The translations under genes and the position numbers were made by a program. A stretch of 52,961 bases of DNA from Escherichia phage mEp013: the sequence record PP180002, one strand, 5' to 3'. This document shows positions 5,294 to 44,092 of the stretch, in pieces; position 1 is the first letter of the stretch, and every line of letters begins with the position of its first letter. A model generated the notes under the pieces. It was not told the DNA's origin, did no database searches, and was given only the letters and a program-made list of their open reading frames with translations.

Positions 5294-6412
5294 TTACAAA
5301 ATGGAAAATTCAGGGTAATAAACAAAGCGCCCGATCTCCCCATGATCCGGGCTGTAAATAATAACCGCTGCCAGACGCCGCGACCGCCAGCCGCCATTAG
5401 TTGAGTAAGCGTCTTTACCCGCTAACGTGCCGTGATACTCAACAACGCCTAACGATGATTCGATTAGCCGTTGATGGTGCCAGTGCCCGCAATGAGCGTA
5501 AACCGCCGCAGACTTGCCAAAATCCTCACGCCAGTCAGCTACGCAAGCAGACAATAAATTTTCCGGCTTTTTGATAGTGTGCCCGTGGTGGTAAGCAAGG
5601 AATGTTTTTCCGTACTGTGTGTGGTGGACGATGGCAGGGGACACATCAACCGTCACGCGCGGTTCATCTTCGTAAAAAGCAGCCAGCGCCGCACGTAGCC
5701 AGATCATTCCTGACTGGTCGTGATTGCCGGATAACACCTGGATTTCAACATCCTTATGATTTAATAACATCTTCCCTACCGCCCGCCGGACCGACCGGAT
5801 CGCTACATAAACAAGTTTTGCGTAGCGACTATCTTGATCAAGAATGTGCCCGCTTGTTGGAGTCACCGGGACCATGCCGTCAGAGTGAAGCAGATCCCCA
5901 CCGAGAAGCAATACAGCTTTTTCAGACATCGGCGCAGCGCCTACAGCGTAGTCAAAGAAGTCATTCAACACGCGCTCAGCAATCCCAGTGTCGTAGCTCT
6001 CGCCACATTCGGCTTTATGAGCAAGCGCCCCGATATGCAGATCAAATACCGGATAAAGGGCCAGGCTTTTTTGAAAATCAATTTCAGGCACTGGCACGGC
6101 ATCCGCGCGTGGTATTTCCTCCGTGAATGCGTCGCAGGCAGCTTCCATTAGCCTTTCCATTTCATCACGGTCACGGGCTGTTTTAATCCAGCGCATGATC
6201 ACATTGCCGTTCTTATCGACTAGTAACGACTCGCCATTGACGCCAAAACCAGGCGCGCGGCGTGTTGACAATAAACCGCGTTTAGCCAGCTTTGCGCCAA
6301 GACGCTCGACGTTGCGTTTTGACATGCCATATTTTTCGGCGATCTGTTTATACGTTAAACCATTGTTATATTCAGCGATCAATTGCTCATCGCTGATTTT
6401 TCTTTGTGACAT
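5294..6412 (-). CDS. HTH domain fused to calcineurin-like metallophosphoesterase
   Basis: N-terminal HTH (LTYKQIAEKYGMSKRNVERL); phosphoesterase motifs GDLLHSD, SGNHD, GHWHH; RBS GAGGA. Confidence 0.75.
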   Translation of the reverse strand: MSQRKISDEQLIAEYNNGLTYKQIAEKYGMSKRNVERLGAKLAKRGLLSTRRAPGFGVNGESLLVDKNGNVIMRWIKTARDRDEMERLMEAACDAFTEEIPRADAVPVPEIDFQKSLALYPVFDLHIGALAHKAECGESYDTGIAERVLNDFFDYAVGAAPMSEKAVLLLGGDLLHSDGMVPVTPTSGHILDQDSRYAKLVYVAIRSVRRAVGKMLLNHKDVEIQVLSGNHDQSGMIWLRAALAAFYEDEPRVTVDVSPAIVHHTQYGKTFLAYHHGHTIKKPENLLSACVADWREDFGKSAAVYAHCGHWHHQRLIESSLGVVEYHGTLAGKDAYSTNGGWRSRRLAAVIIYSPDHGEIGRFVYYPEFSIL

Positions 6413-8610: not shown

Positions 8611-8915
8611 GTTTCTTTCTCCTATGGTTAGGTGAACGCGCGGGCGGGTATCCAATTAGCATTAGATAGCAGTGACTGACCGCTGAACAGATCCCGCCGT
8701 TGCGTGATATTTGTTTTTCGCTTCGCAGCGACACCGGGTTTTTAAAGAGCTTTTAAGGTATGTGCCTTTTGTGCTTTCCCTTATCTCTTTCCTTGCATCA
8801 TTGCAAGTTCGGCTTTACCTTGTCTGTAAGTTTACAGAATGGCGTTAACAGATCAAGGATTGAAAATTACATTTTGTGACTTGCATCAAAATTTTTTAGG
8901 TTATAGGGTAGCGAC

Positions 8916-9593: not shown

Positions 9594-9686
9594 GCCGGAA
9601 AAACACCAAAACGTAAACAGAAAACGTTATTTATTGTTTAAATATCAATAACATATAAAATATTTTAAAAAAGTATACAAAATGGA

Positions 9687-9715
9687 TTGACTCGGTGTTT
9701 TACGGGGCGTATATT
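9687..9715 (+). promoter_or_regulatory. PL-like sigma70 promoter (TTGACT-17-TATATT)
   Basis: Near-consensus hexamers with 17-nt spacer; flanked by 8-bp inverted repeat TTGACTCG/CGAGTCAA; TATACAAAATGG motif directly upstream. Confidence 0.65.
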
Positions 9716-14137: not shown

Positions 14138-14235
14138 CATCGTGATTGCTATCACATGAATATACATTTTGTGTTGTGATCGCATATCCGTTTTGTAAAC
14201 TGAAATTAAAGGTTTACAGCGCGGAGGAAAGCAAG

Positions 14236-17701: not shown

Positions 17702-17860
17702 AATTTACAAAATGGCGTCATTGCGTGATGTGGATCACATAATGGCGCTTTTCACCTTGTTCTGACGTATCCATTTTGTATACTTCAATCAAGCAAAATG
17801 CTCTTTAAAAATCCGGCAGCGCTGAAATGCGTAGAAATCACCTGAAAAGGAGAGAGCATT

Positions 17861-37090: not shown

Positions 37091-37216
37091 AATTCACCTC
37101 GTTTTTGTTTGATTTCTTAACTGTTCCCTATGGCTTCTTTATACAAAATGGAGTCGCTGAAGTAAAGCCATTTTGTATAAAATAGAGACACAGATCACAA
37201 AACCGGAGTAGCAATC

Positions 37217-39478: not shown

Positions 39479-40789
39479 TTACGCTGCTTTTATAATTTCT
39501 TCATACTTATCTTCCACCATGCTAAAAACTTCTGGTCTATAGTAGAAAAATTCGCAACTACCATCAAATTTTACGGGGAAGTTAATTTTGTAATTACTAA
39601 GTTTTTTGTGTATCGCGCCCTCTAGTTCAAAGATATTTTGTGTCGGACCTTCTAATGTTTTTACGATATGTAAATCAGGAATTGTCACACCAGCCTTATG
39701 TGCACTGCTTAGTATTCTATTCCTTCGTTCGTTTTCCTTAACACTTACCCCTACTTTCATTAGCGTTGGCACTTCCATATCGTCAACCATGATATAAAGT
39801 TTGCCGCGTTCGTAGGATAAAAAACCTTTTTTCGCACATTTTAAACATCCGCTACCTCCTTTAAGTTTTTGCGGCGTGGTTCTCCACTTATAGCCACACA
39901 CTTTACATAGACACGATACTTTGGTTTTGTTTCCTGTTATCTTACCAACAACTTTGATATTAGGGTTGATGTTGGCAATGGCTTTTATTTGTTCTTCATG
40001 CGATATTCTTCGCGCTTGTGCTCTTTTTGATGCCGCGCACTTCGGGCAACCAGTGCCTTTTTTAAGGCTGGCTGGAGTAGTTAACCATTCATGACCGCAA
40101 TACTTACAGCTGCATAACGTCCTTGTAGTATTGCTAATAATTTTCCCTAACACCTCAACGCCAGGGCTAGTTTTCGCAATAGCTGTAACCTGTTCTTTGT
40201 GTGATAATTTCATCTTCCCTGAACATTTCGGGCAGCCAGTACCATGCTTGAGATTATTTGGAGTGGCTGACCATTCATAATTGCAAATCTTACATTTGCA
40301 TAATACGTTTTTTAAACTTGAAGTAATTTTTCCCAAGATTTCAATATTGCTGTTAACCTTCGCAATGGATGCAACTTGTTCTTCATGCGTTAATCTTCTA
40401 TCTGTACATTTCGGGCAACCTTGCCCGATTTTAAGTGTTTCAGGTCTAGCCATCCATTCGTGATTACAAACCTTGCAATGGCATAATACTTTTGTTTTAT
40501 TATTAATAATTTTCCCTAATACCTTAACATCAGGATTAACTTTAGCAATAATTGCAATCTGTTCTTCATGTGGTAATGCTCGTTTTTGCGCTCTTTTTGA
40601 TGCCGCGCACTTCGGGCAACCAATACCACGCTTAAGATCAGCAGGTCTACCAAACCATTCGTGATTACAAGTTTTGCAGCAGCATGATACTTTTTCCATA
40701 TTCCCGGTAATTACCCCTATCACCTCGATGTTGGGGTTAACTTTTGCAATGGCGGCAACTTGTTCTTCGTGTGTTAATTTTTTTGTCAT
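39479..40789 (-). CDS. five tandem zinc-ribbon repeats plus GIY-YIG-like (T5orf172/MUG113-type) C-terminal domain
   Basis: Five ~62-aa repeats (L.HEEQ.A.IAKVNP...C.C..C.HEW...GCPKC) then GKLYIMVDD..KVGVS..ERRN..EFFYY domain; paralog of 6446..6982. Confidence 0.7.
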   Translation of the reverse strand: MTKKLTHEEQVAAIAKVNPNIEVIGVITGNMEKVSCCCKTCNHEWFGRPADLKRGIGCPKCAASKRAQKRALPHEEQIAIIAKVNPDVKVLGKIINNKTKVLCHCKVCNHEWMARPETLKIGQGCPKCTDRRLTHEEQVASIAKVNSNIEILGKITSSLKNVLCKCKICNYEWSATPNNLKHGTGCPKCSGKMKLSHKEQVTAIAKTSPGVEVLGKIISNTTRTLCSCKYCGHEWLTTPASLKKGTGCPKCAASKRAQARRISHEEQIKAIANINPNIKVVGKITGNKTKVSCLCKVCGYKWRTTPQKLKGGSGCLKCAKKGFLSYERGKLYIMVDDMEVPTLMKVGVSVKENERRNRILSSAHKAGVTIPDLHIVKTLEGPTQNIFELEGAIHKKLSNYKINFPVKFDGSCEFFYYRPEVFSMVEDKYEEIIKAA

Positions 40790-40866: not shown

Positions 40867-41037
40867 TTACTCAAATCTTGTATATCCTCTTTCAATTTTC
40901 CCTCCGTGTACACTTCTTGCAAACACCGCGTCAGTATACCTGAAAAATGGACATGTATATGTATCCACTTTGCTATCCATATATTTTAGCACCCATGCCA
41001 TGCGTTTTACATTGCTTTTATTTGCCTGGCTTTTCAT
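40867..41037 (-). CDS. hypothetical protein (56 aa)
   Basis: Hand-translated MKSQANKSNVKRMAWVLKYMD...; RBS GGAGGAAAA. Confidence 0.4.
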   Translation of the reverse strand: MKSQANKSNVKRMAWVLKYMDSKVDTYTCPFFRYTDAVFARSVHGGKIERGYTRFE

Positions 41038-41055
41038 TTTATTTTCCTCCGCAAA

Positions 41056-41148
41056 TCACAACCTGCCGTTTCTTGCTATGTAGCTGCGAGCAAACATCAC
41101 CTGCCAGATGTTCCAGATCTCCCTCCAGGTGAATTTATCGTCATCCAT
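41056..41148 (-). CDS. hypothetical small protein (30 aa)
   Basis: Hand-translated MDDDKFTWREIWNIWQVMFARSYIARNGRL; RBS GAGGTG. Confidence 0.3.
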   Translation of the reverse strand: MDDDKFTWREIWNIWQVMFARSYIARNGRL

Positions 41149-41156
41149 ATTTCACC

Positions 41157-41411
41157 TCATTTATGTGCCCCTTTTACGCCACAGTGTCGGTTGTATTCCA
41201 GATGGTCAATAATTAACCACATCTTTAAATCTTCGCTGAATAACCGCCAATCTGGGTTGATGTCAAATTTATAACCGTAGCCATCGCGTAATTTTTTGGG
41301 GTTGGCCTCTTTTTTCAGGAAAGCGTTTAATAAGGCTTTGCCCTTTTTGATGATCCGGTCCTGTGCGTTTTTCTGTGCTTTCAGGTTTTTACCAATCGCC
41401 ACCAATTTCAT
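41157..41411 (-). CDS. hypothetical basic protein (84 aa)
   Basis: ATG at 41411 with RBS GGGGTGG inside ORF 41157..41429. Confidence 0.5.
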   Translation of the reverse strand: MKLVAIGKNLKAQKNAQDRIIKKGKALLNAFLKKEANPKKLRDGYGYKFDINPDWRLFSEDLKMWLIIDHLEYNRHCGVKGAHK

Positions 41412-41429
41412 AATCCACCCCGCAATCAA

Positions 41430-41585
41430 TTAGTTGACCACTTTCAGGAAGAAATCACGGTATTCGTCTTCTTTTGCGTTCATCATGAACTGACCGTATT
41501 TGAATGCGTCATCAAAGCCTTTGACTATCGCCACCTCAACCTGCTCGAATGCTTTGTTTAGCATTACCACTACATAGCGTTTCAT
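41430..41585 (-). CDS. hypothetical protein (51 aa)
   Basis: ATG at 41585 with RBS GTGGGG inside ORF 41430..41636. Confidence 0.4.
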   Translation of the reverse strand: MKRYVVVMLNKAFEQVEVAIVKGFDDAFKYGQFMMNAKEDEYRDFFLKVVN

Positions 41586-41754
41586 ATTGTCCCCACTTTG
41601 TTGGTACTGTTTTCTCTTCTTGCTTTCTGTATACATCTTGTTACGTCCTGCGTGAAGCCATTTCGTAAACTGGGTATAATTCTTGTGACGAAGTTCTCAT
41701 TTTCGCGTAGAAGCGCGTAAAGATGTATGCAATATGTAACTTATAGGGGGAATC

Positions 41755-42108
41755 ATGCCGGAAGTTTTCAGATGGACGCCGCAAAGAAGCTACAGCGTGA
41801 CCAGGGAACCAAATGTGTCGGTCGTTAAACTTGGTGATGGTTATGAACAGCGCCAGGCGAAAGGGATTAACACGTTGCTTGATAGCTACACCCTGGTTTT
41901 TAAAGGCAGTAGCGCAGGATGCGGTGATAGTGGGAACGTGGCGATCCAGGCAGAAGCATTCTTGAGGGCGCGCGGCGCTGTCGAGGCTTTTTACTGGTCG
42001 CCGTCTATGGATGGAGTGCAAAGGCTTTTTGTTTGCCGTAGCTGGAGTATGACAAAGGACGGGCCTGTATACACGCTAAACGCAACATTTGAGCAAGTTG
42101 TCAGCTAG
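41755..42108 (+). CDS. M: minor tail protein, lambda gpM-like
   Basis: 117 aa; matches lambda M pattern as recalled (FRWTP, KLGDGY.QR, F..A.GA...FYW.P, FEQVV). Confidence 0.8.
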   Translation: MPEVFRWTPQRSYSVTREPNVSVVKLGDGYEQRQAKGINTLLDSYTLVFKGSSAGCGDSGNVAIQAEAFLRARGAVEAFYWSPSMDGVQRLFVCRSWSMTKDGPVYTLNATFEQVVS

Positions 42109-42119
42109 TGGGGGTTAAT

Positions 42120-42305
42120 ATGTACGGGACTTGTGTAGTGGACAAAACTGACGCTTTTACATTGTTTGACGACTACGAGATCAACGACCTTACTGTAAAG
42201 GCTGACAATGGCGATACCTGGTATCTTCATGATGTTGGTGACGGGTATGTGGGATGCAGATCCAGGGAAGGCAAGGAGGTTTTATTTTTGGTTGATGGCG
42301 TATAA
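42120..42305 (+). CDS. hypothetical protein (61 aa)
   Basis: ATG at 42120 with RBS GTGGGGG. Confidence 0.4.
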   Translation: MYGTCVVDKTDAFTLFDDYEINDLTVKADNGDTWYLHDVGDGYVGCRSREGKEVLFLVDGV

Positions 42306-42308
42306 TAA

Positions 42309-42336
42309 CAACCCCGCTTCGCGCGTGGTTTTCTTT
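42309..42336 (+). terminator. terminator-like hairpin (imperfect copy of the J terminator)
   Basis: AACCCCGC-TTCG-CGCGTGGTT (one stem mismatch) plus TTTTCTTTT; part of 36-bp repeat shared with 49833-49868. Confidence 0.4.
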
Positions 42337-42380
42337 TAGTAGTTAATATGCATCAAACTCATTGGGTGAGCGTGCGCCAT

Positions 42381-42473
42381 ATTATTGGCTATCGCCGCCC
42401 AGTCCCAATCGGCAGCATGAACGCCAAATACTATCAGTCCCATTATTATTAGCGCCAAAACTTCTATTTTCAT
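42381..42473 (-). CDS. hypothetical small hydrophobic peptide (30 aa)
   Basis: Hand-translated MKIEVLALIIMGLIVFGVSCCRLGLGGDSQ; RBS AGGTGA. Confidence 0.3.
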
Positions 42474-42483
42474 AATCTGTCAC

Positions 42484-42732
42484 CTATAAGTTATCACGCA
42501 GGTAATTAACGCCCTTATCAGTGACGAATGAATGGTTGACCTGGTTTTCATCCGTCATGATGACGAATAACTTTTCCTGTAGGTATTTCGCTTTCGGGTA
42601 CAGTGTTAAACAGACCTGGTACAGTATCCCGCGCTCAATCAGCAAATCAATAAATTCGTGCTCATGATAACCGATGAGGCGGGCGGCCTGTTTCAACGTG
42701 TACACATAATCACCGTGATTGCGCCGCGCCAT
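42484..42732 (-). CDS. hypothetical protein (82 aa), possible HTH
   Basis: RBS AGGTGGGA. Confidence 0.5.
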   Translation of the reverse strand: MARRNHGDYVYTLKQAARLIGYHEHEFIDLLIERGILYQVCLTLYPKAKYLQEKLFVIMTDENQVNHSFVTDKGVNYLRDNL

Positions 42733-42741
42733 ACTCCCACC

Positions 42742-43092
42742 TTATTTATCGAAAGCAGATAGGTTGTCTATACAGAAATCTTTTGCAGCTTTTTCGTATT
42801 CGCGTTTTGCTTGCGGATCGTCTGCCGGGAAACCTTTTGCGTGTATTTCACCAGGGCAAGACTGATCCATAGAATCAGCAAATTCAACATTGACGTTAAA
42901 GTTAATATCTTTCGGGTTCATCTCTTCCACCTTATCAGGTACTTGGACCGGAGTAATAACAAAATCACGAGCGTTAGACCAACAGCGAAGTAATTCGCGA
43001 CCTTCATCACGCGCCGCAGTATATGTGTCAAATAGGCCCATGCATTCCCATTCACATTTACCAGTCCACACGTCTAGGCTGTATTTTTGCAT
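42742..43092 (-). CDS. hypothetical protein (116 aa)
   Basis: RBS GAGAGG. Confidence 0.5.
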   Translation of the reverse strand: MQKYSLDVWTGKCEWECMGLFDTYTAARDEGRELLRCWSNARDFVITPVQVPDKVEEMNPKDINFNVNVEFADSMDQSCPGEIHAKGFPADDPQAKREYEKAAKDFCIDNLSAFDK

Positions 43093-43104
43093 TTTGTTAA
43101 CCTC

Positions 43105-43260
43105 TCATTTGACAGGTTCTATCCTGTACCCCAAAACGCGTTCATCTTCAGCAAGTAAAAGCGCGTCATTCAGTGCCTCGCCTTCATCCTTATACAGAGC
43201 TACAGTCATTTCCCTGCCATCCGCAAGGAACACCGTTAACCTCCACACCTTATCAACCAT
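43105..43260 (-). CDS. hypothetical protein (51 aa)
   Basis: ATG at 43260 with strong RBS GGAGGTG inside ORF 43105..43335. Confidence 0.45.
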   Translation of the reverse strand: MVDKVWRLTVFLADGREMTVALYKDEGEALNDALLLAEDERVLGYRIEPVK

Positions 43261-43306
43261 CTCACACCTCCGCGCCATTTTGTTAACCATGCTTCCTTTT
43301 GAGTAC

Positions 43307-43335
43307 AATATACATATTGTAAAAAGCGCTATCAA
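43307..43335 (-). promoter_or_regulatory. sigma70-like promoter for the minus-strand cassette (TTGATA-17-TATATT)
   Basis: On minus strand: TTGATA, 17-nt spacer, TATATT, ~40 nt upstream of the cassette's first start. Confidence 0.55.
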
Positions 43336-43387
43336 CCGTTTTGGTATGATTTAGCGTGACGTCGATCACAAATTACAAGGTGATAAA

Positions 43388-44092
43388 ATGCGCAGCATAC
43401 CTACAGAAATGATTATTGATTCCGTGGATGCCGGAGTCGGCGCGGTAATTGACTTGTTTGAATTAGACCTCACGCCCCTTGGTGGCGAGGTTATCCGCTT
43501 CCATTCCGGCGCTAATGGCTATTACGGCCCGGTTATCTGGAAGGGAGTGGCTTACAACAGCTACCCAATCGAGGCAACTGGCTTCGAAATGAAAAACGAA
43601 GGCGTTTACTCACGCCCCCAAATGGTAGTAGCCAACATTGGCGGGCTAATCACCGGGATGAACAACGATTTCAATGACCTGCGAGGAATGAAGGTTACGC
43701 GCCGCCAGGTGGAAGTAAAATACCTGGATGCCATCAATTTCCCCAACGGCAACCCGGATGCAGATCCATCTATCGAGGCAGTATCTTTTTACGTCGTTGA
43801 GGCGATGAGCGAAGAAACAGCCGACCAGGTGCAATATGAACTGTCAACGCCAATTGATGCTGACAAGGCGGTTATCCCGGGGCGCACAATTCTCGCTGAC
43901 GTTTGCCAGTGGCAATATCGCGGCGACGGTTGCAGATACAGTGGCGGCCCCGTAGCTACTGACAAAGACGAGCCAACAAGTGATCCAAAGCTGGATAAAT
44001 GCAGCCACCGCCTGAGCGGTTGCCGTTTGCGTTTTCCGCGTCCTAATCCGTTACCAATTTCCTGTTTCCCAGGATCTAGTAAGGTAGGTTGA
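43388..44092 (+). CDS. L: minor tail protein, lambda gpL-like
   Basis: Matches lambda L as recalled (TGM..D...L.G..V.RR, YRGD.C.YSG, DKCS..LSGC..RF). Confidence 0.85.
   Translation: MRSIPTEMIIDSVDAGVGAVIDLFELDLTPLGGEVIRFHSGANGYYGPVIWKGVAYNSYPIEATGFEMKNEGVYSRPQMVVANIGGLITGMNNDFNDLRGMKVTRRQVEVKYLDAINFPNGNPDADPSIEAVSFYVVEAMSEETADQVQYELSTPIDADKAVIPGRTILADVCQWQYRGDGCRYSGGPVATDKDEPTSDPKLDKCSHRLSGCRLRFPRPNPLPISCFPGSSKVG

What the first reader, a model, noticed from the sequence alone, without database searches (positions are those of the whole stretch)
42336..43335. Second opposite-strand cassette between gpM and gpL with its own near-consensus promoter
Four minus-strand ORFs (51, 116, 82, ~30 aa), most with strong SD sequences, separate M from L and are preceded on the minus strand by TTGATA-17-TATATT (43307-43335). 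A constitutive-looking promoter firing antisense into the tail operon implies lysogeny-expressed cargo; the 82-aa product may be a small HTH regulator.
Basis: seen in the sequence. Interest (0 to 1): 0.6.

Follow-up and report, generated by a model that had tools for sequence, protein, structure and literature searches.

The report
Conserved antisense accessory operon in phage tail genes
Between two tail genes of an mEp021-type temperate E. coli phage sits a real, conserved four-gene operon on the opposite strand, with its own promoter and terminator; this is an ordinary kind of phage accessory ('moron-like') cassette, and the new points are its likely CRP control and a stand-alone KilAC protein.

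Summary
Four tightly packed minus-strand genes lie between the M/gp70-like genes and L: orfA 51 aa, orfB 116 aa, orfC 82 aa and orfD 45 aa (not ~30). TTGATA-17-TATATT sits exactly at 43335-43307. The window is an mEp021-like (mEpimmI) phage, and GenBank relatives already list the genes as hypothetical, with one 'putative antirepressor'.

All four ORFs are under purifying selection. A 10/12 promoter match alone is no better than chance. What supports it is position and conservation across 41 distinct relatives, about 4-5 times tighter than synonymous sites.

New findings:
- A conserved CRP-like site (TGTGA-N6-TCAC) lies at about -62.5.
- An 8-bp inverted repeat overlaps the -10.
- A bidirectional terminator follows orfD, weakened by a mismatch in this window.
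- The promoter resembles the phage's PR-like early promoter and those of two other antisense cassettes.
- orfC is a stand-alone KilAC/ANT winged-HTH domain.
- orfA and the orfB N-domain are fast-evolving, acidic, probably paralogous mini-domains.
- One relative lacks the cassette, and a sister phage group carries other cargo at the same junction.

Verdict: a moron-like accessory operon. Expression in lysogens and its function remain untested. Moderate-to-low interest.

The parts
43355..43370 (-). CRP-like site TGTGATCGACGTCACG. It matches 9 of 10 core positions of TGTGA-N6-TCACA. Its centre is about -62.5 from the predicted +1.
   Evidence: the window holds only 3 copies of TGTGAN6TCAC against 0.4 expected; the half-sites are 99.5-100% conserved in 41 relatives while the 6-nt spacer is 81% conserved; the site is present once, at the same place, in 48 of the 49 cassette-region loci. 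CRP binding itself was not tested.
43336..43346 (-). TACCAAAACGG block abutting the -35 (TACCAAAATGG in most relatives). It is a copy of a phage-wide TACAAAATGG word and could be a UP-like element or an operator of unknown regulator.
   Evidence: it aligns in register with the same block at the PR-like promoter and at the two other antisense cassettes; the word occurs 25 times against 6 expected.
43330..43335 (-). -35 hexamer TTGATA
   Evidence: Searches show TTGAT[A/C] at 97% column identity.
43307..43312 (-). -10 hexamer TATATT, with a 17-nt spacer. The predicted +1 is near A43300, which is an inference.
   Evidence: Searches show it invariant in 41 distinct sequences.
43304..43321 (.). Perfect 8-bp inverted repeat TACAATAT-gt-ATATTGTA overlapping the -10. 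It is a candidate operator. It also carries a + strand -10-like TACAAT.
   Evidence: One search shows it is unique in the window; about half of the relatives have a 7/8 right arm (ATATTTTA).
43261..43299 (-). Leader with the conserved block GGTTAACAAAATG (43276-43288). The block is repeated at the orfB start (43090-43102). Its ATG is in frame with orfA here but opens a 7-codon uORF in some relatives.
43105..43260 (-). orfA, 51 aa, acidic (pI 4.5), phrog_29559. It evolves fast and is replaced by an unrelated 52-aa allele in some relatives.
   Evidence: hhalign to the orfB N-domain gives probability 69%, E 4e-5.
42742..43092 (-). orfB, 116 aa, acidic, phrog_38567. It has a variable N-terminal beta-beta-alpha-beta domain (residues 1-50) and a conserved C-terminal module that begins at M58.
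42484..42732 (-). orfC, 82 aa, a stand-alone KilAC/ANT domain (winged HTH) with a TDKG motif. It is the most conserved gene of the cassette.
42336..42473 (-). orfD, 45 aa, with a hydrophobic N-terminus (one TM segment or a signal peptide ending VHA|AD). Present in 28 of 41 relatives.
42310..42338 (.). Bidirectional intrinsic terminator shared with the + strand gp70-like gene. In relatives the stem is ACCCCGC-5-GCGGGGT at about -18 kcal/mol. This window has a G-to-T mismatch at 42326 and folds at about -9 kcal/mol.
   Evidence: It is annotated as TERM_11/12 in mEp021 and T16 in mEp515.

Best explanation
This is a moron-like accessory operon of mEpimmI (mEp021-type) temperate coliphages, placed antisense at the M/L junction of the tail gene cluster.

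How it most likely works: host sigma-70 RNA polymerase starts near 43300 at a conserved near-consensus promoter (-35 TTGATA, 17-nt spacer, -10 TATATT). The promoter carries an A-tract block next to the -35 and a CRP-like site at a class-I-like position, so output is probably tied to cAMP-CRP rather than constitutive. One mRNA of about 1 kb encodes orfA to orfD. It ends at a bidirectional terminator that also closes the + strand M/gp70-like unit, so Q-antiterminated late transcription can pass through while cassette transcripts stop.

The products are small host-directed proteins, not virion parts:
- Two paralogous, acidic, fast-evolving beta-beta-alpha-beta mini-proteins (orfA, and the orfB N-domain fused to a conserved tail).
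- A highly conserved stand-alone KilAC winged-HTH protein (orfC).
- A 45-aa membrane or secreted peptide (orfD).

I commit to this reading: the unit is expressed independently of the late operon, most likely including in the lysogen under catabolite control. orfC is the conserved effector or regulator, and orfA and orfB are exchangeable partners.

Shown: the anatomy, coding status, conservation, fold classes and hotspot behaviour. Inferred: the transcription start, CRP dependence, timing and function.
For: - Promoter and Shine-Dalgarno sequences are at the stated positions.
- The control region is 4-5 times more conserved than synonymous sites. The -10 and the CRP half-sites are invariant while the CRP spacer varies.
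- The CRP core is rare in the window (3 copies against 0.4 expected) and occurs once, at the same place, in 48 of the 49 cassette-region loci.
- CRP-like sites also lie at about -60.5 and -70.5 in the two other antisense cassettes, whose promoters align in register with this one.
- All four ORFs are under purifying selection.
- The terminator hairpin is perfect in relatives and annotated in mEp021 and mEp515.
- An L-based sample shows the cassette in 41 of 42 mEpimmI-type contigs and absent in one. In a sister group the same junction holds other minus-strand cargo, including a PD-(D/E)xK NucC-like nuclease.
- The neighbouring antisense cassette, with the same promoter type, carries a ParE-like toxin gene, which is typical prophage-expressed cargo.
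- orfC belongs to Pfam ANT/KilAC and has a winged-HTH fold.
- GC content is slightly lower than in the tail genes (43-45% against 48-52%).
Against: - There are no transcript data. A 10/12 promoter match alone is at chance level.
- The single cassette-less relative (L085) keeps the whole 127-nt control region next to L. A + strand promoter-like TTGTTA-18-TACAAT overlaps it. Part of the conservation may therefore serve L rather than the cassette.
- The promoter is a sequence relative of the PR-like early promoter. It shares the over-represented word TACAAAATGG. If that word is a repressor operator, the cassette would be silent in lysogens.
- Isolated KilAC domains are growth-inhibitory in other systems (10.1101/2024.01.05.574328; PMC5944126), which fits poorly with steady lysogenic expression.
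- The CRP centre is -62.5 or -63.5 from a predicted +1, not the canonical -61.5.
- orfC is near-neutral (pI 6.9), which is unusual for a DNA-binding regulator.
Confidence: 0.5

Rival explanations
1. Prophage-repressed early operon for host takeover or anti-defence. The promoter fires at infection or induction like the PR-like promoter. orfA and orfB are exchangeable small acidic inhibitors. orfC is the conserved HTH protein that shuts the promoter down through the inverted repeat over the -10, the architecture known from acr-aca operons, or is itself a Kil-type inhibitor of cell division or SOS.
For: - The promoter is homologous to the PR-like early promoter. It is the best non-self match in the window, scoring 24.5 against 9.3 +/- 1.5 in shuffles.
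- An inverted repeat overlaps the -10.
- orfA and orfB are acidic (pI 4.5), hypervariable, and replaced by non-homologous alleles, while orfC stays 89-99% identical.
- Published KilAC domains act on FtsZ/cell division or on the SOS response (10.1101/2024.01.05.574328; PMC9043618; PMC5944126).
Against: - No homology to any defence-related family in PADLOC, nor to other families in Pfam or NCBIfam. No anti-defence (Acr/Aca) library was available.
- There is only one inverted repeat, and it is imperfect in about half of the relatives.
- No repressor operator has been identified.
- The neighbouring cassette with the same promoter type carries a ParE-like toxin module, which is usually expressed in lysogens.
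- orfC is not basic.
Confidence: 0.25
2. Induction switch. orfC, or the whole cassette, acts as an antirepressor module whose CRP-dependent promoter couples prophage induction to carbon starvation, in a phage group whose CI-like repressor is not RecA-cleavable.
For: - orfC falls in the 'phage antirepressor' KilAC family. Its nearest other relatives are the C-termini of Rha/Ant proteins.
- There is a conserved CRP-like site.
- mEpimmI lysogens are reported not to be UV-inducible, and Rep021 lacks the Ala-Gly cleavage site (PMC11893012, Discussion).
Against: - The role of the KilAC domain in antirepression is unclear in the papers read here. In AriS this domain damped SOS, while regulation of the phage's own genes was assigned to the N-terminal AntA/AntB domain (PMC9043618).
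- orfC lacks any N-terminal Bro/AntA/Rha domain.
- A natural variant without the cassette exists.
- No interaction data exist.
Confidence: 0.08
3. The conserved 127-nt region exists mainly for the + strand, as a restart promoter and translation signals for L-K-I-J. On this view the minus-strand hexamers are a by-product of an AT-rich palindrome, and the cassette is transcribed weakly or from elsewhere.
For: - A + strand TTGTTA-18-TACAAT (TAAAAT in relatives) lies at 43280-43309.
- Its -35 sits inside the strongly conserved GTTAACAAAATGG block.
- The cassette-less contig L085 keeps the entire region directly between M and L.
Against: - The four genes are under purifying selection and need a promoter. 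No other minus-strand promoter-like site lies between L and orfA.
- The minus-strand hexamers are the better match (10/12 against 9/12) and align in register with three other promoters of the same phage.
- The CRP-like site would lie inside the transcribed leader of the + strand promoter.
Confidence: 0.08
4. Toxin-antitoxin or addiction module, for example a small orfA antitoxin with an orfB or orfC toxin.
For: - A small upstream ORF is followed by larger ORFs with tight spacing.
- KilAC proteins can be bacteriostatic (10.1101/2024.01.05.574328).
- The adjacent cassette holds a 51-aa ORF followed by a ParE-like toxin.
Against: - No toxin or antitoxin family hit for orfA-D in Pfam, NCBIfam or PADLOC.
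- orfA allele types and orfB N-domain types are shuffled among genomes, with no cognate pairing.
- The 51-aa ORF of the neighbouring ParE cassette is unrelated to orfA or orfB.
Confidence: 0.04

Closest known systems
Morons of lambdoid phages, as defined by Hendrix and colleagues (examples: lambda bor and lom, HK97 gp15). Cited from my own knowledge.
   Same: Extra genes sit between conserved morphogenesis genes, with their own sigma-70 promoter and intrinsic terminator. GC content is slightly lower. Content varies between relatives. One relative lacks the unit, and a sister group has other cargo at the same junction.
   Different: It is nearly fixed in its phage group (41 of 42) and has a strongly conserved member, orfC. 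It has four genes. It has probable CRP input, and its promoter is paralogous to the phage's own early promoter. Expression in lysogens has not been shown.
[quoted passage not shown]
   Same: These are the same genes at the same place, at 90-95% DNA identity. The terminator is already annotated. The published study lists a KilAC-like antirepressor protein, taken here to be this gene's homologue, among its 59 manually defined core products (PMC11893012).
   Different: None of the fetched records (mEp021, mEp515, three RefSeq prophages) annotates a promoter or CRP site at this locus, and the mEpimmI paper does not discuss one. Nor do they describe the inverted repeat, the promoter family, the orfA/orfB paralogy or the allele turnover. 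The name 'transporter' for orfA has no support.
Stand-alone or isolated KilAC (Pfam ANT, PF03374) domains: CreP of Acinetobacter baylyi (103 aa), the C-terminal domain of Phi11 Gp07, and the KilAC domain of Listeria AriS.
   Same: orfC is a single KilAC domain above the Pfam gathering score. It has the TxKG motif (TDKG, residues 71-74) and a winged-HTH-like model.
   Different: orfC is only 82 aa, and the Pfam match covers profile positions 23-105 of 108. No activity has been tested: toxicity, filamentation, FtsZ or RecA effects are all unknown here. Its nearest other phage relatives are only 32-38% identical.
Class I CRP-dependent promoters such as lac P1, with the CRP site centred at -61.5. 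Cited from my own knowledge.
   Same: TGTGA-N6-TCAC(G) lies upstream of the -35 on the same face of the helix within about 1 bp. An A-tract sits where the alpha-CTD would bind. The half-sites are conserved and the spacer is free to vary.
   Different: The core promoter is already near-consensus, whereas CRP-dependent promoters usually have a weak -35. The centre is -62.5 or -63.5 from a predicted, not measured, start.
acr-aca anti-CRISPR operons: a strong promoter, variable small inhibitors, and a conserved HTH autorepressor. Cited from my own knowledge.
   Same: The gene order and evolutionary pattern match: a conserved promoter with an inverted repeat, hypervariable small acidic ORFs, then a conserved small HTH protein. 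The operon is embedded in morphogenesis genes.
   Different: There is no sequence or fold link to any known Acr or Aca. There is a single, partly degenerate repeat. The orientation is antisense. orfC belongs to a different HTH family, KilAC.

Membership tests
Moron (autonomous accessory transcription unit in a phage morphogenesis operon) | Own promoter upstream of the extra gene(s) | tested here: met
   TTGATA-17-TATATT is on the correct strand in the 127-nt gap. It is invariant or nearly so in 41 relatives. This is sequence-level evidence only; no transcript data exist.
Moron (autonomous accessory transcription unit in a phage morphogenesis operon) | Own terminator downstream | tested here: met
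   The hairpin at 42310-42330 plus a T-run has a perfect 8-bp GC stem in relatives at about -18 kcal/mol. It is weakened in this window to about -9 kcal/mol.
Moron (autonomous accessory transcription unit in a phage morphogenesis operon) | Present in some related phages and absent from others, between conserved neighbours | tested here: met
   Absent in 1 of 42 mEpimmI-type contigs (L085). In the sister group the junction is tight or filled with other cargo. Within the group, however, the cassette is nearly fixed.
Moron (autonomous accessory transcription unit in a phage morphogenesis operon) | Expressed from the repressed prophage | not testable with these tools
   No transcriptome data were available.
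Pfam ANT / KilAC domain (PF03374) | Score above the curated gathering threshold | tested here: met
   orfC scores 31.4 bits against a cutoff of 25.3, E 2.7e-7, covering profile positions 23-105 of 108. Precomputed PF03374 hits exist on 6 of its 7 close-homologue clusters.
Pfam ANT / KilAC domain (PF03374) | Conserved TxKG motif and helix-turn-helix core reported for KilAC proteins (10.1101/2024.01.05.574328) | tested here: met
Phage antirepressor (functional class) | Binds and inactivates the phage repressor | not testable with these tools
   orfC has no N-terminal Bro-N, AntA or Rha domain. There is no interaction evidence.
Class I CRP-activated promoter | Match to TGTGA-N6-TCACA | tested here: met
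   Nine of 10 core positions match. There are 3 such cores in 53 kb against 0.4 expected. The half-sites are 99.5-100% conserved, and the core is a perfect 10/10 in L003 and L004.
Class I CRP-activated promoter | Site centred near -61.5 (or -71.5, and so on) from the transcription start | tested here: inconclusive
   The centre is -62.5 (-63.5 in relatives with one extra base) from a predicted +1 at A43300. The start has not been measured.
Class I CRP-activated promoter | Activity depends on cAMP-CRP | not testable with these tools
   Requires a reporter assay in a crp deletion strain.
Type II toxin-antitoxin module | Recognisable toxin or antitoxin family, or cognate co-variation of the pair | tested here: not met
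   No hits in Pfam, NCBIfam or PADLOC. orfA and orfB allele types are shuffled among genomes.
acr-aca type anti-defence operon | Homology to a known Acr or Aca family | not tested
   No Acr/Aca library was available. Pfam, PHROGs and NCBIfam gave no such annotation. The resemblance is architectural only.

The most novel reading that the evidence does not exclude
The cassette is a catabolite-gated control module. cAMP-CRP would switch on a stand-alone KilAC protein, together with exchangeable partner proteins orfA and orfB. That protein would antagonise the non-cleavable CI-like repressor, or damp RecA/SOS or cell division. This would give mEpimmI prophages, which are reported not to be UV-inducible, a nutritional route of induction or host control. 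The same CRP/TACAAAATGG promoter design on all three antisense cassettes would then define a phage-wide, host-state-sensing regulon embedded in the tail genes.
Probability: 0.08. Interest if true: 0.7.

Novelty: new member of a known kind. Interest (0 to 1): 0.35.

Why it matters
mEpimmI phages are reported to be as common as lambdoid phages in the Mexican human-faecal E. coli phage collection (PMC11893012), yet their accessory genes are unstudied. This cassette is nearly fixed in the group and evolves quickly at two of its four genes. It carries one of the few stand-alone KilAC proteins, a domain recently tied to cell-division arrest and SOS control. If the CRP link is real, it would show a prophage accessory operon wired to host carbon status. 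As it stands, the finding refines the annotation (promoter, CRP-like site, terminator, gene starts, domain calls). It also flags the M/L junction as an accessory-gene hotspot. It does not reveal a new kind of system.

Tried and rejected
- **Families for orfA, orfB, orfD.** Pfam, NCBIfam and PADLOC gave nothing, and PHROGs gave only 'unknown function' families.
- **'Transporter' name for orfA.** RefSeq uses it, but nothing supports it and orfA is soluble and acidic.
- **Exhaustive profile search with orfB.** The family is confined to E. coli mEpimmI-type phages. The C-terminal module also occurs alone as 56-aa proteins.
- **Paralogy of the two 51-aa first genes.** The first genes of this cassette and the neighbouring one are unrelated by BLASTP and hhalign.
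- **Cognate co-variation of orfA and orfB alleles.** Not seen.
- **Known RNA families.** None in 41000-44000.
- **The inverted repeat as a shared operator.** It has no other copy in the window.
- **Repressor operators.** I compared the PL and PR regions for shared motifs and found nothing clear.
- **LexA box.** None seen by eye in the promoter sequence; no pattern search was run.
- **Nut/boxB reading of the CRP-like palindrome.** Rejected, because the published boxB loops are A-rich.
- **Relatives of orfC in 185,579 species genomes.** None found.
- **Paper supplements.** They hold nothing on these genes.
Full report
**What the window is.** The 1.3 kb around the finding matches six GenBank phages at 90-95% identity: mEp021, mEp515, mEp554, mEp044, mEp010 and MagusPhagus. 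It also matches prophages in 35 of 5,426 complete E. coli genomes, always on the chromosome. These are the Nus-dependent, non-lambdoid 'mEpimmI' temperate siphophages described in PMC11893012. In mEp021 the region is annotated as gp69 (M-like), gp70, a bidirectional terminator, gp71 ('putative antirepressor'), gp72-74 (hypothetical), then L. mEp515 and RefSeq prophages show the same layout. The genes are therefore already in databases, but nothing beyond automatic names has been said about them.

**Observation check.** The + strand carries M (41755-42108; Pfam Phage_min_tail), a 65-aa gp70-like ORF (42108-42305; phrog_3249) and L (43388-44092; Pfam Phage_tail_L). Between them, on the minus strand, lie four genes:
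- orfA: 43105-43260, 51 aa.
- orfB: 42742-43092, 116 aa.
- orfC: 42484-42732, 82 aa.
- orfD: 42336-42473, 45 aa.

Each gene has a Shine-Dalgarno sequence, and the gaps between genes are 9-12 nt. TTGATA-17-TATATT is at 43335-43307 as stated.

A match of this quality is not rare. The window has 8 sites at >=10/12 against 14 expected in composition-matched simulations, and the local scan is also at chance. The evidence that matters comes from comparison with relatives.

**Comparative evidence.** I collected 44 IMG/VR contigs through orfB and later 80 through L.

- *Coding.* All four ORFs are under purifying selection. dN/dS is 0.21, 0.23, 0.10 and 0.12 for A to D, against 0.05 and 0.08 for L and M.
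- *Control region.* The 127-nt gap between L and orfA differs between sequence pairs by only 0.125 on average, and by 0.09 for the promoter-plus-CRP part. Synonymous differences are 0.43-0.50 in the flanking genes and in orfA, orfB and orfD; orfC is lower at 0.27. The -10 is invariant, the -35 is TTGAT[A/C], and the spacer is 17 in 40 of 41.
- *Terminator.* The hairpin just past orfD is a perfect ACCCCGC-5-GCGGGGT stem flanked by T-runs on both strands in relatives, at about -18 kcal/mol. This window carries a G-to-T mismatch and folds at about -9 kcal/mol.

The unit therefore has a conserved start signal and a conserved stop signal. It does not run into M.

**New features of the control region.**
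- *CRP-like site.* TGTGATCGACGTCACG lies at 43370-43355. The core TGTGA-N6-TCAC occurs three times in 53 kb against 0.4 expected. It is found once, at this position, in 48 of the 49 cassette-region loci. Its half-sites are 99.5-100% conserved while the central six bases vary, which is the pattern of a dyad protein-binding site. From a predicted +1 at A43300 the centre is -62.5, or -63.5 in relatives with one extra base. That is close to, but not exactly, the class I position of lac (my own knowledge).
- *Inverted repeat.* A perfect 8-bp repeat, TACAATAT-gt-ATATTGTA, overlaps the -10 and is unique in the window. About half of the relatives have a 7/8 right arm.
- *Leader block.* GGTTAACAAAATG is repeated at the orfB start. 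Its ATG is in frame with orfA here but opens a short uORF in other alleles.
- *Promoter family.* The best match to this control region anywhere else in the window is the promoter downstream of the repressor gene and upstream of nutR1 and the N-like gene (9676-9715). It scores 24.5 against 9.3 +/- 1.5 in shuffles. The control regions of the two other antisense cassettes, upstream of the tape-measure gene and upstream of M, align in the same register. The shared layout is TAC(A/C)AAA(A)YGG, then the -35, 17 nt, the -10, then G. CRP-like sequences sit at about -60.5 and -70.5 in those two.
- *The word TACAAAATGG.* Allowing one mismatch, it occurs 25 times against 6 expected. It fits a proximal UP subsite in these promoters (my own knowledge). 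It also appears as long inverted pairs and over a -10 elsewhere, so it could be an operator. I could not resolve this (notebook, 'unexplained').

**The proteins.**
  - CreP, a 103-aa stand-alone KilAC protein, is bacteriostatic, causes filamentation and co-precipitates FtsZ (bioRxiv 10.1101/2024.01.05.574328).
  - The KilA-type C-terminal domain of Phi11 Gp07 inhibits E. coli growth (PMC5944126).
  - The KilAC domain of Listeria AriS suppresses the SOS response (PMC9043618).
- *orfB.* It has a confidently modelled beta-beta-alpha-beta N-domain (residues 1-50) and a disordered but highly conserved C-terminal module that starts at an almost invariant Met58 and also exists as separate 56-aa proteins. 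The family is confined to these E. coli phages.
- *orfA.* It aligns over its whole length with the orfB N-domain (hhalign probability 69%, E 4e-5), so the two are probably old duplicates.
- *Shared behaviour of orfA and orfB.* Both are acidic, with pI 4.5. Both evolve much faster than their neighbours: orfA is 43-96% identical and orfB 64-94%. Some genomes carry an unrelated 52-aa gene in place of orfA behind the same promoter. Allele types of orfA and orfB are freely recombined.
- *orfD.* It has one hydrophobic segment and is present in 28 of 41 relatives.
- *Extra genes in relatives.* Some have a 79-aa ORF or an HNH/AP2 homing endonuclease between orfB and orfC, or a 67-aa ORF after orfC.

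**Distribution at the junction.** In the sample drawn through L, 41 of 42 informative mEpimmI-type contigs carry orfB and orfC between M and L. One contig (L085) lacks both the gp70-like gene and the cassette. There the M stop codon is joined to the cassette leader, and the complete control region remains next to L.

In a sister group (L about 71% identical) the junction takes one of two forms. Either it is a 45-nt gap holding only a terminator, or it holds 300-1300 nt of other genes. In most of the filled junctions inspected, these are a small + strand ORF followed by a minus-strand ORF. The cargo includes a DUF6602/PD-(D/E)xK NucC-like nuclease and an aspartyl-protease-like protein.

The M/L junction is therefore an accessory-gene hotspot. 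This cassette is one occupant that has become nearly fixed in its lineage.

**Interpretation.** The anatomy fits the moron concept: its own promoter, its own terminator, non-structural small genes, slightly lower GC and presence/absence variation. I commit to an autonomous, host-polymerase-driven accessory operon, probably stimulated by CRP and probably active in lysogens. The neighbouring cassette has the same promoter design and carries a ParE-like toxin gene (Pfam PF24732), the sort of gene prophages usually keep on.

The main rival is that the promoter belongs to the phage's early regulon, silent in the prophage, and that the cassette is a host-takeover or anti-defence operon autoregulated by orfC. 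That rival has real support from three things: the kinship with the PR-like promoter, the inverted repeat, and the known toxicity of KilAC domains.

A further caveat is that part of the control region's conservation may serve L. A + strand promoter-like TTGTTA-18-TACAAT overlaps it, and the region survives in the cassette-less contig.

The most novel reading not excluded is a CRP-gated KilAC module that controls induction or the SOS response in a phage group reported not to be UV-inducible, with a repressor lacking the cleavage site (PMC11893012). It rests on inference alone.

**Verdict.** This is a new, better-described member of a known kind, not a new kind of system. Transcript mapping and reporter assays with and without CRP, Rep021 and orfC would settle the open points.

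Noticed in passing
window 9676-9715 (+), 37098-37216 (-), 41586-41754 (-), 43261-43387 (-): Four promoters align in register as TAC(A/C)AAA(A)YGG, -35, 17 nt, -10, G. They are the PR-like early promoter and the control regions of all three antisense cassettes in the tail region. This looks like a paralogous promoter family.
   Followed up: partly
window-wide; perfect copies at 5295, 9676, 17706, 17771(-), 29638, 37142, 37168(-): The 10-mer TACAAAATGG (one mismatch allowed) occurs 25 times against 6.0 expected, and the 8-mer ACAAAATG occurs 21 times against 4.5. Many copies sit in intergenic control regions. It may be a UP-like element or the operator of an unidentified phage regulator.
   Followed up: partly
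window 37139-37180 and 17706-17780: A 13-bp perfect inverted repeat, TTATACAAAATGG-16-CCATTTTGTATAA, spans the -35 to -10 of the cassette promoter upstream of the tape-measure gene. A 10-bp pair of the same word, 54 nt apart, brackets a CRP-like palindrome just upstream of the likely nutR2 site.
   Followed up: no
window 43280-43309 (+) and about 41670-41680 (+): There are + strand promoter-like elements facing L (TTGTTA-18-TACAAT) and M (a perfect TATAAT), back to back with the cassette promoters. They may be restart promoters for the tail genes after each antisense cassette.
   Followed up: partly
L085 (IMGVR_UViG_3300045988_076424) 2360-2510: A natural mEpimmI-type variant lacks the gp70-like gene and the whole cassette. 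The M stop codon is fused to the cassette leader, and the entire 127-nt control region is retained next to L.
   Followed up: yes
L096-L131 (sister phage group), M/L junction: The same junction is either tight (45 nt, holding a terminator) or holds unrelated cargo. Examples are a 268-aa DUF6602/PD-(D/E)xK NucC-like nuclease (L112) and an aspartyl-protease-like 154-aa protein (L130). In most of the filled junctions inspected a small + strand ORF is followed by a minus-strand ORF.
   Followed up: partly
window 41157-41411 (-) and 41430-41585 (-): The neighbouring antisense cassette encodes a ParE-like toxin domain protein (Pfam PF24732, E 7e-12) preceded by a highly conserved 51-aa ORF. This is probably a toxin-antitoxin pair. 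The 51-aa protein is unrelated to orfA.
   Followed up: partly
window 39479-40789 (-): A 436-aa protein has five DUF4379 treble-clef zinc-finger repeats, CapR homology domains and a C-terminal T5orf172 domain, in a low-GC stretch (35-42%).
   Followed up: no
window 14141-14156, 17724-17739, 41684-41699: Further CRP-like palindromes lie in intergenic positions. The one at 41684-41699 is in the control region of the cassette upstream of M.
   Followed up: no
window 42310-42330 and the same site in L006-L049: The loop of the bidirectional terminator occurs in both orientations among relatives (CCCCGC-TTCGC-GCGGGG against CCCCGC-GCGAA-GCGGGG). The window copy has a stem mismatch at 42326. This suggests the hairpin is a recombination joint.
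   Followed up: no
window 42484-42732: orfC has clearly lower synonymous divergence (pS 0.27) than every neighbouring gene (0.43-0.50). This hints at extra nucleotide-level constraint or a recent sweep.
   Followed up: no
L026 3357-3842; L008 3370-3609; L007 3618-3821: Relatives carry extra genes inside the cassette. These are a split HNH/AP2 homing-endonuclease-like gene or a 79-aa ORF between orfB and orfC, and a 67-aa ORF after orfC. In L004, orfB is truncated to 30 aa.
   Followed up: no
window 8823-8838: A perfect palindrome, TCTGTAAGTTTACAGA, lies in the PL/PRM-side region upstream of the CI-like repressor gene. It is a candidate repressor operator and is absent from the cassette promoter.
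   Followed up: no
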